Shown: in pieces, positions 6,001-9,000 of the stretch
Layout of the letters: each line of letters starts with the position of its first letter
Numbering within the stretch: position 1 is the first letter of the stretch
Assembly: GCF_050920415.1 (NCBI RefSeq)
Contig: NZ_CP169309.1
Length of the DNA stretch: 64,000 bases
From: Escherichia coli
GTDB lineage: Bacteria; Pseudomonadota; Gammaproteobacteria; Enterobacterales; Enterobacteriaceae
Direction: 5' to 3' (one strand)
Program-made: the position numbers

Positions 6001-9000
6001 TTGTGGTCGCCGGAAGCTACTGGGGTCAGACCGACGGTCAGGTGATGTACATTCTCGCCATCAGCCTCGCGGCGGCGGAAGCGAGTATCGGCCTTGCGCT
6101 GCTGCTGCAACTTCACCGTCGTCGCCAGAACCTGAACATCGATTCAGTAAGTGAGATGCGCGGATGAACATGCTTGCCTTAACCATTATTTTGCCATTGA
6201 TTGGCTTCGTCCTGCTGGCGTTCTCCCGTGGGCGCTGGTCTGAAAACGTCTCAGCGATCGTGGGCGTTGGCTCTGTGGGCCTGGCGGCGCTGGTAACTGC
6301 CTTTATCGGCGTTGACTTCTTCGCTAACGGTGAGCAGGCATACAGCCAGCCGCTGTGGACATGGATGTCGGTAGGCGACTTTAACATCGGTTTCAATCTG
6401 GTGCTGGACGGCCTGTCGCTGACCATGCTCTCGGTGGTCACCGGTGTCGGTTTCCTTATTCACATGTACGCCTCCTGGTACATGCGTGGTGAAGAGGGCT
6501 ACTCTCGCTTCTTCGCCTACACCAACCTGTTCATCGCCAGCATGGTGGTTCTGGTTCTTGCTGACAACCTGCTGTTGATGTACCTCGGCTGGGAAGGCGT
6601 TGGCCTGTGCTCCTATCTGTTGATCGGTTTCTATTACACCGATCCGAAGAATGGCGCAGCGGCAATGAAAGCGTTTGTCGTGACCCGTGTGGGTGACGTG
6701 TTCCTCGCTTTCGCGCTGTTCATTCTCTACAACGAACTGGGCACCCTGAACTTCCGTGAAATGGTGGAACTGGCACCCGCGCACTTTGCTGACGGCAATA
6801 ACATGCTGATGTGGGCGACGCTGATGCTGCTGGGCGGTGCGGTTGGTAAATCTGCGCAGCTGCCGTTGCAGACATGGCTTGCCGACGCGATGGCGGGCCC
6901 GACGCCTGTCTCCGCGCTGATCCACGCCGCAACGATGGTAACCGCGGGTGTCTACCTGATCGCCCGTACCCACGGCCTGTTCCTGATGACACCAGAAGTT
7001 CTGCATCTGGTGGGTATTGTCGGGGCAGTTACGCTGCTGCTGGCCGGTTTTGCCGCGCTGGTACAGACCGATATCAAACGTGTTCTCGCTTACTCTACCA
7101 TGAGCCAGATTGGCTACATGTTCCTCGCGCTTGGCGTACAGGCATGGGATGCGGCGATTTTCCACTTGATGACCCACGCGTTCTTTAAAGCGCTGCTGTT
7201 CCTGGCATCCGGTTCCGTCATTCTGGCCTGCCATCACGAACAGAACATCTTCAAGATGGGCGGTCTGCGTAAATCTATTCCGCTGGTTTATCTCTGCTTC
7301 CTGGTGGGTGGTGCAGCACTGTCGGCACTGCCGCTGGTTACTGCGGGCTTCTTCAGTAAGGATGAGATCCTCGCCGGTGCGATGGCGAATGGTCATATCA
7401 ATCTGATGGTGGCAGGTCTGGTCGGTGCGTTTATGACCTCGCTCTACACCTTCCGTATGATTTTCATCGTCTTCCACGGGAAAGAACAAATTCACGCTCA
7501 CGCCGTGAAAGGGATTACTCACAGCCTGCCGCTGATTGTGCTGCTGATCCTTTCCACCTTCGTTGGCGCACTGATTGTACCGCCGCTGCAGGGCGTGCTT
7601 CCGCAAACTACGGAACTGGCGCACGGCAGCATGTTGACCCTGGAAATTACCTCTGGCGTGGTCGCGGTGGTTGGTATTCTGCTGGCAGCCTGGCTGTGGC
7701 TGGGTAAACGTACTCTGGTGACCTCCATCGCCAACAGTGCGCCGGGCCGTCTGCTGGGTACCTGGTGGTACAACGCCTGGGGCTTTGACTGGCTGTACGA
7801 CAAAGTGTTCGTCAAGCCGTTCCTGGGTATTGCCTGGTTGCTGAAACGCGATCCGCTGAACTCAATGATGAACATCCCGGCTGTCCTTTCCCGCTTTGCA
7901 GGTAAAGGTCTGCTGTTAAGCGAGAACGGTTATCTGCGCTGGTATGTGGCATCCATGAGCATCGGTGCGGTCGTGGTGCTGGCACTGTTGATGGTACTGC
8001 GTTGAGTTGTTGGCTGAGTGAATATACCCGGCGTTGCGCCGGGTCTGTGAACTAAGAATAAATTTTAGGTAACTGTTCCTGAAGTACAGGCGTCATCGGC
8101 GAAGTCAGACCGGATACCGCCAGCGCACAGCAACCGGAGCGTACTTAAGTACGTGAGGATTGCGAGCACTGCCGGGATTCGGGCTGGCGAGTGAGATAGC
8201 CTGAGCAGGAGTAAATATAAGGGACATACTTAGCTATGTTATTACCCTGGTTAATACTAATCCCCTTTATTGGCGGCTTCCTGTGCTGGCAGACCGAACG
8301 CTTTGGCGTCAAGGTGCCACGCTGGATCGCGCTGATCACCATGGGATTGACGCTGGCGCTGTCGCTGCAACTGTGGTTGCAGGGCGGTTATTCACTGACG
8401 CAATCTGCCGGAATTCCGCAGTGGCAGTCTGAATTCGACATGCCGTGGATCCCGCGTTTTGGTATCTCTATTCATCTCGCCATTGATGGTCTGTCGCTGC
8501 TGATGGTCGTGCTGACCGGTCTGCTCGGCGTGCTGGCGGTACTTTGTTCGTGGAAAGAGATCGAAAAATATCAGGGCTTCTTCCACCTCAACCTGATGTG
8601 GATCCTGGGCGGCGTTATCGGCGTGTTCCTTGCCATCGACATGTTCCTGTTCTTCTTCTTCTGGGAAATGATGCTGGTGCCGATGTACTTCCTGATCGCA
8701 CTGTGGGGGCATAAAGCTTCTGACGGTAAAACGCGTATCACGGCGGCAACCAAGTTCTTCATTTACACCCAGGCGAGTGGTCTGGTGATGTTGATTGCTA
8801 TCCTGGCGCTGGTTTTTGTTCACTACAATGCGACCGGCGTCTGGACCTTCAATTATGAAGAGCTGCTGAATACGCCGATGTCTAACGGCGTGGAATACCT
8901 GCTGATGCTGGGCTTCTTCATCGCATTTGCGGTGAAAATGCCGGTGGTTCCGCTGCATGGCTGGCTGCCGGATGCGCACTCTCAGGCACCGACTGCCGGT

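What the first reader, a model, noticed from the sequence alone, without database searches (positions are those of the whole stretch)
8006..8235. Unusually long structured spacer inside the nuo operon (nuoL-nuoM)
Most nuo genes are overlapped or separated by a few nucleotides, but nuoL and nuoM are separated by 230 bp containing a perfect GC-rich hairpin (acccggcg-ttg-cgccgggt) with no U-tract. This may be an internal processing, stability or attenuation point that sets relative subunit expression.
Basis: seen in the sequence. Interest (0 to 1): 0.2.

Follow-up and report, generated by a model that had tools for sequence, protein, structure and literature searches.

The report
Palindromic repeat cassette between nuoL and nuoM
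The unusually long gap between two respiratory-complex genes is mostly a 140-base copy of a rare palindromic repeat element plus a small hairpin; most E. coli lack this version of the gap, yet a Salmonella lineage carries it letter for letter, so it is a swappable add-on, not a fixed control switch.

Summary
nuoL (6164-8005) and nuoM (8236-9765) are 230 bp apart, and a perfect 8-bp GC-rich hairpin with no U-tract lies at 8026-8044.

Positions 8072-8211 hold a 140-nt, TA-flanked palindromic repeat ("X"). E. coli K-12 has five other copies. X resembles ERIC in design but is not an ERIC. It may be the old "RSA" family, but I could not confirm that.

X folds into a hairpin of about 40 bp, and 17 of 37 pairs show compensatory changes. 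It sits in the same slot in 23 of 78 Enterobacterales species and evolves at about half the rate of third codon positions.

The 19-nt hairpin is not conserved:
- Only 724 of 5426 E. coli genomes have it. K-12 has an unrelated 163-bp spacer with a REP.
- Other species carry REPs or unrelated hairpins at that position, and some spacers are only 21-41 nt.
- An arizonae-like Salmonella lineage carries the same 230 bp with 0-1 mismatches, while nuoM DNA is 89% identical. That points to horizontal exchange.

Most likely this is a dispensable cassette of palindromic elements, co-transcribed with nuo, that modestly affects mRNA stability or processing. It is not an attenuator. The kind is known, so interest is modest.

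The parts
6164..8005 (+). nuoL coding sequence; stop codon TGA at 8003-8005
   Evidence: ORF list. Annotated as nuoL in matching E. coli records.
8006..8235 (+). nuoL-nuoM spacer, 230 bp ('allele B')
   Evidence: Present at 99% identity or more in 723-724 of 5426 complete E. coli genomes. Identical, with 0-1 mismatches, in an arizonae-like Salmonella lineage.
8026..8044 (+). It is single-copy and has no U-tract. It occupies the position where related species carry REP/BIME or other GC-rich stem-loops.
   Evidence: One place per genome. Slot comparison.
8045..8069 (+). AT-rich linker. In this allele it replaces the GAATTCGTTGAAAATC motif that most Enterobacteriaceae spacers share.
   Evidence: Spacer comparison.
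8070..8071 (.). TA dinucleotide flanking the repeat on its 5' side (putative target-site duplication)
   Evidence: Read from the sequence. All six E. coli copies are flanked TA...TA. The pheM-pheS empty site keeps a single TA.
8072..8211 (+). Element X: a 140-nt imperfect palindrome from a low-copy dispersed repeat family (MITE-like, ERIC-like in design, possibly the 'RSA' family). The consensus helix spans 8087-8203, the apex is CGTACTT/AAGTACG at 8140-8153, and the outer stem pairs 8076-8081 with 8206-8211.
   Evidence: Other copies at 77-80% identity, 4-5 per genome. Profile hits. Fold of -54.8 kcal/mol, z = -4.5. 37 consensus pairs, 17 with compensatory changes, 96.4% paired, 0 of 500 shuffles as good.
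8212..8213 (.). TA dinucleotide flanking the repeat on its 3' side
   Evidence: Read from the sequence; see the entry for 8070-8071.
8016..8026 (+). GAGTGAATATA, a direct repeat of GAGTAAATATA at 8209-8219. The pair brackets the hairpin and X. The 41-nt spacer of Enterobacter sp. ENT03 looks like the version without this block.
   Evidence: Repeat family D4; L030 spacer.
8219..8224 (+). Shine-Dalgarno-like AAGGGA, 11 nt before the nuoM ATG and 8 nt after the X hairpin
   Evidence: Read from the sequence. The SD region AATATAAGGGACATAC is shared by all species with this spacer type.
8236..9765 (+). nuoM coding sequence

Best explanation
The spacer is a cassette of palindromic elements sitting in the one junction of the nuo operon that tolerates extra sequence.

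Module 1 (8026-8044) is a short GC hairpin just after nuoL. In other species a REP/BIME or an unrelated GC hairpin occupies this position.

Module 2 (8072-8211) is a TA-flanked 140-nt copy of a low-copy palindromic repeat, called X here. X is ERIC-like in architecture and behaves like a MITE. It ends 8 nt before the nuoM ribosome-binding site.

Shown:
- The anatomy and the family membership of X.
- X is old at this locus (Enterobacteriaceae and Erwiniaceae). Its hairpin is kept by compensatory changes and folds better on the mRNA strand.
- X has been trimmed from the apex down to a 5-8-bp stub in many lineages, including K-12-type E. coli.
- The 230-bp allele is a minority allele in E. coli and is shared nearly letter for letter with a Salmonella lineage. 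The spacer as a whole is therefore replaced horizontally by recombination in the conserved coding flanks.

Inferred:
- Both hairpins are transcribed inside the nuoA-N mRNA.
- There they probably act as REP and ERIC elements are reported to act. The first would block 3'-exonucleases and protect the nuoA-L segment. The long X hairpin would be an endonuclease entry point and/or a protective 5' structure for nuoMN.
- The effect is probably modest and dispensable. It is not transcription attenuation.
For: Anatomy.

Family:
- Window 8087-8204 matches 4-5 other places per E. coli genome.
- K-12 copies lie at pheM-pheS, pyrH-frr, qseE-qseG, ycbX-rlmL and ucpA-cysP.
- A metagenome scan finds copies at many lineage-specific junctions.
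- The pheM-pheS copy is present or absent among E. coli genomes, with TA flanks.

Age at this locus:
- X sits in the same slot and orientation in 23 of 78 species.
- Apically deleted forms occur in Kosakonia cowanii, UBA5654, K. oryzendophytica and Pantoea BAV3049.
- 16 species without X keep a stub hairpin whose arms match X's outer repeat. It is 95% paired, and 3 of 7 pairs show compensatory changes.

Constraint:
- 17 of 37 pairs are compensatory. Covariation is 0.304 against 0.140 in shuffles, and slid controls pair at about 30%.
- X is more conserved than nuoM third codon positions in 231 of 231 species pairs, with a distance ratio of about 0.48.
- The sense-strand consensus fold is -51.3 kcal/mol against -39.0 for the antisense strand. 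G.U cells number 70 and A.C cells 4.

Dispensability and exchange:
- 724 of 5426 E. coli genomes carry the allele, and the K-12 spacer is unrelated.
- Spacers range from 21 to 291 nt.
- Window 7998-8270 (273 bp) is identical to Salmonella loci whose flanking DNA is about 89% identical.

Mechanistic precedent:
- REP/BIME elements are reported as mRNA stabilisers and attenuators. Palindromic repeats are reported as mRNA stability determinants in Neisseria and Yersinia (PMC2267715).
- An ERIC downstream of a gene is reported to create an RNase E site (PMC3184786).
Against: - There is no transcript-level evidence for any effect at this locus.
- NuoL, NuoM and NuoN are, to my knowledge, one copy each per complex, so unequal expression has no obvious use.
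- X and the hairpin have been lost repeatedly, and K-12 respires normally without either.
- Compensatory changes in a long palindrome could come from arm-to-arm templated repair rather than selection.
- Part of the G.U excess is inherited family-wide, because the qseE-qseG copy shows it although it lies antisense to its genes.
- Low divergence of X could partly reflect horizontal replacement, which is demonstrated here.
- The post-nuoL hairpin z-scores used only 30 mononucleotide shuffles and are rough.
Confidence: 0.6

Rival explanations
1. One reading: the 19-nt GC hairpin is itself a dedicated regulatory site (processing, stability or attenuation) that sets the ratio of nuoA-L to nuoMN expression.
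For: - The stem is perfect and folds at -16 kcal/mol, 20 nt after the nuoL stop.
- Most Enterobacterales with non-minimal spacers have some stable stem-loop in the same place.
Against: - The sequence occurs in only 13% of E. coli genomes and one Salmonella lineage.
- It has no U-tract.
- Eleven species have no room for any hairpin.
- The slot is often filled by ordinary REP/BIME repeats, which insert wherever they are tolerated.
- The hairpin always travels with the whole cassette, so its perfect conservation among carriers reflects recent common descent.
Confidence: 0.12
2. Pure passenger DNA: the hairpin and X are selfish or neutral insertions in a permissive gap and have no effect on nuo expression.
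For: - Spacer length and content vary widely, from 21 to 291 nt.
- X is repeatedly eroded from its apex.
- X copies are present or absent among E. coli genomes.
- Serratia carries an ERIC and other genera carry REPs in the same gap.
- K-12 lacks both modules.
Against: - X evolves at about half the rate of nuoM third codon positions in all 231 species pairs, and its unpaired columns are also conserved.
- The structure is better on the mRNA strand.
- A stub hairpin persists, with compensatory changes, after X is lost.
Confidence: 0.25
3. DNA-level role: the palindromes act on the chromosome, for example as binding sites for IHF, gyrase or nucleoid proteins as reported for BIMEs, or as a recombination hotspot. 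They would not act in the mRNA.
For: - BIMEs are reported to bind IHF, DNA polymerase I and gyrase (PMC3184786).
- The locus shows horizontal replacement.
- One X copy lies between divergent genes (ycbX-rlmL), which is not inside an operon.
Against: - G.U far outnumbers A.C, and the sense strand folds more stably. A duplex or cruciform signal would be symmetric.
- No protein-binding motif was tested or recognised.
Confidence: 0.08
4. The spacer hides a gene or an internal promoter: a small protein, an sRNA, or a separate nuoMN promoter.
For: - Mechanical ORFs of 34, 40 and 65 aa lie on the minus strand across X.
- One weak promoter-like match lies on the minus strand at 8242-8214.
Against: - There is no plus-strand promoter-like site.
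- No Rfam family matches.
- Substitutions in X follow base-pair covariation, not a codon pattern.
- The ORFs fall inside a palindromic repeat found at many unrelated loci.
Confidence: 0.04

Closest known systems
ERIC / IRU (enterobacterial repetitive intergenic consensus, about 127 bp MITE)
   Same: - Both are whole-length imperfect palindromes of 120-150 nt in transcribed intergenic DNA.
- Both have TA at both ends and a low copy number in E. coli.
- Both occur in short forms with internal deletions.
- The central ~22 nt are similar: GGAGCGTACTTAAGTACGTGA in X against GGAGCTTACATAAGTAAGTGA in ERIC.
- Serratia species carry a canonical ERIC in the same nuoL-nuoM slot.
   Different: - A profile of X does not detect canonical ERIC copies even at E <= 10.
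- Only 24 of 44 core positions match the ERIC primer core.
- The arms outside the centre are unrelated.
'RSA' repeats of E. coli K-12 (from memory: about 152-bp palindromic repeat, 6 copies in the K-12 genome paper; surveyed by Bachellier et al. 1999)
   Same: - The size is about 140-150 nt including the outer arms.
- The element is palindromic.
- I found five copies in K-12.
   Different: I could not obtain the published RSA consensus or its locus list. The identification rests on memory. K-12, on which those surveys were based, lacks the nuoL-nuoM copy.
REP / BIME elements in operon spacers (for example the malE-malF type of mRNA stabiliser)
   Same: - A GC-rich stem-loop lies shortly after a cistron inside a polycistronic mRNA.
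- K-12, Citrobacter, Klebsiella and Phytobacter carry true REPs at the position of the window's hairpin.
- REP/BIME elements are reported as mRNA stabilisers and attenuators (PMC2267715, PMC3184786).
   Different: - The window's hairpin is 19 nt and single-copy.
- It lacks the GTAG/CTAC tail.
- At most it shares the apical GGCGYTGCGC with neighbouring species' REPs.
Horizontal replacement of non-coding regions in E. coli (from memory: 'horizontal regulatory switching', Oren et al. 2014; the variable folA-apaH spacer is cited in PMC3184786)
   Same: One intergenic region exists as unrelated alleles within a species, and one allele is shared across genera.
   Different: Here the switched region is an intra-operon spacer made of repeat elements, not a promoter region.

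Membership tests
Intrinsic (Rho-independent) terminator / attenuator | GC-rich stem-loop followed directly by a U-tract | tested here: not met
   The sequence after 8044 is CTGTGAACTAAG. The nearest T-run (8064-8067) is 19 nt away. The terminator scan finds nothing in the spacer.
REP / BIME | Many near-identical copies per genome | tested here: not met
   The left 85 bp of the spacer, including the hairpin, has exactly one place per genome in 724 genomes and none elsewhere.
REP / BIME | Imperfect palindrome of about 35-40 nt with a GTAG/CTAC tail | tested here: not met
   The hairpin is a 19-nt perfect stem-loop with no CTAC tail. By contrast, the K-12 spacer has GTAGGTCGGATAAG...CATCCGACA, which matches a bona fide REP at 28 of 37 positions.
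ERIC / IRU | Sequence homology to the ERIC consensus (central inverted-repeat core) | tested here: not met
   The nhmmer profile of X gives no hit to 7 canonical ERIC copies at E <= 10. X matches the ERIC primer core at 24 of 44 positions. That core is itself present at 100% identity in E. coli genomes.
ERIC / IRU | Long imperfect palindrome of about 127 bp in transcribed intergenic DNA, flanked by TA | tested here: met
   X is a 140-nt palindrome flanked by TA at 8070-8071 and 8212-8213. All E. coli copies are flanked TA...TA. The TA motif of ERIC-type elements is described in PMC3184786.
MITE (miniature inverted-repeat transposable element) | Dispersed copies at unrelated loci, differing between lineages | tested here: met
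   There are five K-12 loci plus nuoL-nuoM. Metagenome contigs show further host junctions, including apt-dnaX, dnaN-recF, upp-uraA, aspS-yebC and yafJ-fadE.
MITE (miniature inverted-repeat transposable element) | Presence/absence polymorphism with target-site duplication | tested here: inconclusive
   At pheM-pheS, 4781 genomes are filled and about 644 are empty. The filled form reads ...TA[143 nt]TA... and the empty form reads ...AT-TA.... This fits a TA duplication, but the empty site carries an extra AT. At nuoL-nuoM the 5' flank is TC in several species.
MITE (miniature inverted-repeat transposable element) | A partner transposase that mobilises it | not tested
   I did not search for a partner transposase.
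RSA repeat family of E. coli K-12 | Match to the published RSA consensus and locus list | not testable with these tools
   The papers that describe RSA are not in the held library. Size and copy number are consistent.
Curated structured RNA family (Rfam 15) | Score at or above a family's gathering threshold | tested here: not met
   Only chance-level hits fall in the spacer. No family covers X at five other loci. The best is sX9 at 31 bits against a threshold of 44.

The most novel reading that the evidence does not exclude
X is no longer just a repeat. Under this reading it is an exapted cis-acting RNA hairpin kept by selection for very long periods just upstream of nuoM, and also in the pheST, pyrH-frr and qseEGF transcripts. 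The whole spacer would then be a horizontally exchanged 'expression cassette'. Natural E. coli lineages (K-12 type versus B/O157 type) and Salmonella lineages would differ heritably in how the membrane-arm subunits of complex I are expressed.
Probability: 0.15. Interest if true: 0.55.

Novelty: new member of a known kind. Interest (0 to 1): 0.3.

Why it matters
Taken alone, this is an ordinary case of palindromic repeats accumulating in a tolerant operon gap. Three points give it some value.

1. Two standard laboratory lineages differ completely here. K-12 has a REP plus a stub hairpin. BL21/B and O157:H7 have the GC hairpin plus the full 140-nt element. That is a ready-made natural experiment on whether such elements alter segmental mRNA stability in a 13-gene operon.

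2. The repeat family has strong covariation support, evolves more slowly than synonymous-type sites, and is absent from Rfam. It could be curated as a family.

3. The identical 273-bp tract shared by E. coli and Salmonella, inside genes that are about 89% identical, is a clean example of horizontal replacement of an intra-operon spacer.

Tried and rejected
- **Rfam scans.** Scans of the spacer and of five other X loci gave nothing above threshold.
- **Promoter and terminator scans.** No plus-strand promoter and no terminator lie in the spacer.
- **Minus-strand ORFs.** ORFs of 34-65 aa cross X. I rejected them because they sit in a palindromic repeat whose substitutions follow base pairing.
- **ERIC membership.** I first took X for an ERIC from its centre. 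The profile test failed.
- **RU-3 of Delihas 2007.** I checked it and it turned out to be a BIME, not X.
- **Naming the family.** Literature searches for RSA, IRU and Box C surveys found nothing usable. De Gregorio 2005 and Liang 2015 are not held.
- **Published data on the locus.** Searches for nuoL-nuoM transcript ends or processing found only Streptomyces antisense RNAs and unrelated papers. Term-seq papers on BL21(DE3) and EHEC Sakai exist, but their supplementary tables are not held.
- **K-12 record.** The NC_000913.3 feature table shown by the tool lists no repeat features even where BIMEs clearly exist, for example gmhA-yafJ. The missing REP annotation at nuoL-nuoM is therefore uninformative.
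- **A long-range helix.** The MFE fold pairs 8012-8020 with 8227-8235. I did not pursue it because the pairing is weaker in Citrobacter youngae.
- **X as an insertion into an existing hairpin.** I considered that X had inserted into the loop of the small core hairpin. I now prefer the reverse: the core hairpin is the stub of X. Its arms match X's own outer repeat, and intermediate deletion forms exist.
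Full report
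**1. The observation**

The window is E. coli. nuoL runs from 6164 to 8005 and nuoM from 8236 to 9765, and matching genome records annotate them under those names. The gap is 230 bp. The other junctions from nuoH to nuoN are 14, 11, -4, -4 and 6 nt. The hairpin ACCCGGCG-TTG-CGCCGGGT lies at 8026-8044 and folds at -16 kcal/mol. No U-tract follows it, and the terminator scan finds nothing there.

A perfect 8-bp GC-rich stem is not rare in itself. The window has 3, against 1.5 +/- 1.4 in shuffles. The spacer as a whole is strongly structured, at -89 kcal/mol with z = -4.6.

**2. What fills the spacer**

Positions 8087-8204 form one long imperfect hairpin (-54.8 kcal/mol, z = -4.5). They match four to five other places per E. 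coli genome at 77-80% identity. I call this element X.

Its other copies in K-12-type genomes lie at five junctions:
- between pheM and pheS;
- between pyrH and frr;
- between qseE and qseG;
- between ycbX and rlmL;
- between ucpA and cysP.

With its outer arms, the window copy spans 8072-8211 and is flanked by TA on both sides. The other five E. coli copies are flanked the same way.

At pheM-pheS the element is missing from about 644 of 5425 genomes. The filled site reads TA-[143 nt]-TA, and the empty site keeps a single TA preceded by an extra AT.

An exact-pattern scan of metagenome contigs recovered X at many further junctions that differ between lineages. These include apt-dnaX, dnaN-recF, upp-uraA, aspS-yebC and yafJ-fadE. 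X is therefore a low-copy, dispersed, MITE-like palindromic repeat.

**3. Which family is X?**

The centre of X resembles the ERIC core, and I first took it for an ERIC. The test failed. A profile of X does not find seven canonical ERIC copies even at E <= 10, and only 24 of 44 core positions agree. No Rfam family covers X at any locus.

From memory, its size and copy number fit the "RSA" repeats listed for K-12 in the 1990s. I could not retrieve those papers, so that name is only a lead.

**4. The spacer across Enterobacterales**

I recovered the nuoL-nuoM junction from 78 species. The spacer ranges from 21 to 291 nt. Four patterns stand out.

(a) Eleven species have only 21-41 nt, so nothing in the long spacers is essential.

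(b) X occupies the same slot, in the same orientation, ending 20-35 nt before the nuoM start, in 23 species. They belong to Salmonella, Citrobacter, Enterobacter, Kosakonia, Phytobacter, Siccibacter, Shimwellia, Pantoea and Erwinia.

(c) Apically deleted forms of X exist in Kosakonia cowanii, UBA5654, K. oryzendophytica and Pantoea BAV3049. Sixteen X-less species, including K-12-type E. coli, keep a 5-8-bp hairpin at that spot. Its arms match X's own outer repeat. It is 95% paired, and 3 of 7 pairs show compensatory changes. I read the small "core" hairpin as the stub left after X lost its apex.

(d) The position just after nuoL, where the window has its GC hairpin, holds REP/BIME elements in Citrobacter, Klebsiella, Phytobacter and K-12. 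It holds unrelated GC hairpins in Pantoea, Erwinia, Buttiauxella, Kluyvera, Kosakonia, Serratia and others.

Serratia species carry a canonical ERIC where others carry X. The junction therefore collects palindromic elements of several kinds.

**5. Is X constrained?**

I aligned 22 orthologous nuoL-nuoM copies with four E. coli paralogues.
- The consensus hairpin has 37 pairs, 17 of them with compensatory double changes.
- 96.4% of cells are paired, against 87.6% in shuffles and about 30% when partners are slid.
- No shuffle out of 500 reaches the observed covariation.
- X is more conserved than nuoM third codon positions in all 231 species pairs: mean identity 0.80 against 0.645, with a corrected distance ratio of about 0.48. 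Unpaired columns are conserved as well.
- The mRNA-sense strand folds better than the antisense strand. The consensus energies are -51.3 and -39.0 kcal/mol, G.U cells number 70 against 4 A.C cells, and single sequences are more stable in sense in 18 of 22 cases.

These results favour a constraint acting on the transcript. There are caveats. The structure was predicted on the sense strand. Part of the G.U pattern is inherited family-wide. Arm-to-arm repair in palindromes could mimic compensation. Horizontal replacement, shown below, can also lower apparent divergence.

**6. The allele is a minority one and moves between genera**

Only 723-724 of 5426 complete E. coli genomes carry this 230-bp spacer, and all of them do so at 99% identity or more. 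Carriers include O157:H7, O55:H7, BL21(DE3) and other B strains, APEC O78 and ETEC. The other genomes, including K-12, have a 163-bp spacer that shares nothing with it beyond the first bases. Around the spacer the two E. coli haplotypes differ by about 10% (7856-7963 and 8242-8337).

Salmonella arizonae CCUG 6322T and four of five other Salmonella genomes with a 230-bp spacer carry the identical sequence; the fifth (L218) differs at one position. In the five identical genomes the unbroken identical run is window 7998-8270 (273 bp). Their nuoM DNA is only about 89% identical to the window's. At that divergence, 273 consecutive matches by chance have a probability near 10^-15 (my calculation). 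Other Salmonella genomes encoding the same NuoM protein carry a different 250-bp spacer, made of a REP plus another variant of X.

The cassette has therefore been exchanged horizontally, by recombination within the conserved gene ends. The perfect conservation of the hairpin among carriers reflects recent shared descent, not long-term selection. Outside these two groups, the hairpin occurs in none of the other 215 loci I held.

**7. How it most likely works**

Shown: the anatomy, the family, the age and constraint of X at this locus, its repeated erosion, and the horizontal exchange.

Inferred: both structures are transcribed within the nuoA-N mRNA, because no promoter-like or terminator-like signal separates the genes.

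By analogy with reported behaviour, I think two effects are most likely:
- The post-nuoL stem-loop shields the upstream segment from 3'-exonucleases.
- The long X hairpin serves as an endonuclease entry point and/or a protective 5' structure just ahead of the nuoM ribosome-binding site.

The reported behaviour is as follows. REP/BIME elements act as mRNA stabilisers and attenuators. Palindromic repeats determine mRNA stability in Neisseria and Yersinia. ERIC elements create RNase E sites (PMC2267715, PMC3184786).

I expect a modest, dispensable effect. I put the anatomy at about 0.9 and this functional reading at about 0.4. Attenuation is unlikely. The main rival is that the elements are pure passengers, at about 0.25.

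**8. Verdict**

The finding is real, but it is best described as a cassette of palindromic repeat elements in a permissive operon gap. The kind is known, this member is new and polymorphic, and it has an interesting history of horizontal spread. By its own conservation criterion, the specific hairpin fails.

Interest is 0.3. The decisive experiments are transcript-end mapping in allele-B strains compared with K-12, and isogenic spacer swaps.

Noticed in passing
window 7998-8270; L015, L220, L221, L225, L226 (L218 has one mismatch, at 8177): A 273-bp block covering the whole spacer and the first 35 nt of nuoM is identical between this E. coli allele and an arizonae-like Salmonella lineage. The flanking coding DNA is only about 89% identical. 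This indicates recent horizontal exchange of an intra-operon spacer.
   Followed up: yes
L217, L219, L222-L224 versus L218, L220, L221, L225, L226: Salmonella genomes that encode one identical NuoM protein carry two unrelated spacer alleles, of 250 bp and 230 bp. The two groups differ by about 5% in nuoM/nuoN DNA. I could not determine which subspecies they belong to.
   Followed up: partly
L002 1482-1635 versus L216 (pheM-pheS spacer): The X copy between the pheST attenuator and pheS is absent from about 12% of complete E. coli genomes. The empty site carries an extra AT next to the single TA, which could be an excision footprint.
   Followed up: partly
L067, L073, L077, L079, L080 (Serratia nuoL-nuoM spacers): Five Serratia species carry a canonical ERIC element in the same slot where Enterobacteriaceae and Erwiniaceae carry X. 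Serratia proteamaculans and Serratia sp. H1w lack it.
   Followed up: partly
L001 407-569 (K-12 nuoL-nuoM spacer): The K-12 spacer contains a clear single REP, GTAGGTCGGATAAGCCGCCTTCGCGGTGCATCCGACA, which matches a known REP at 28 of 37 positions. The feature table shown for NC_000913.3 does not list it. That table also shows no repeat features at an obvious BIME between gmhA and yafJ.
   Followed up: partly
L013, L018, L019, L031 and other Enterobacteriaceae spacers; absent from window 8045-8071: A 16-mer, GAATTCGTTGAAAATC, is almost invariant just upstream of X or its stub in most Enterobacteriaceae spacers, including K-12. In the window's allele it is replaced by TTTTAGGTAA. Its role is unknown.
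   Followed up: no
window 8016-8026 and 8209-8219; L030: An 11-nt direct repeat (GAGTGAATATA / GAGTAAATATA) brackets the hairpin and X. The 41-nt spacer of Enterobacter sp. ENT03 looks like the same spacer without the bracketed block. Either deletion between the repeats or insertion could explain this.
   Followed up: partly
window 34779-34801 and 47322-47343: Two other perfect 8-bp GC-rich hairpins turned up in the window during the chance estimate. I did not examine them.
   Followed up: no
window 8098-8154 (-) and L003 1187-1253 (-): Two X copies give sub-threshold hits to the Rfam family sX9 (a Xanthomonas sRNA) on the minus strand, at 16 and 31 bits against a threshold of 44. This is probably a hairpin artefact.
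   Followed up: no
L108, L112, L162, L171 and other metagenome contigs: In uncultured enterobacteria, X copies sit at junctions of core genes: dnaN-recF, apt-dnaX, upp-uraA and upstream of rpoD. I identified the flanking genes by eye from ORF translations, not by a family search.
   Followed up: no
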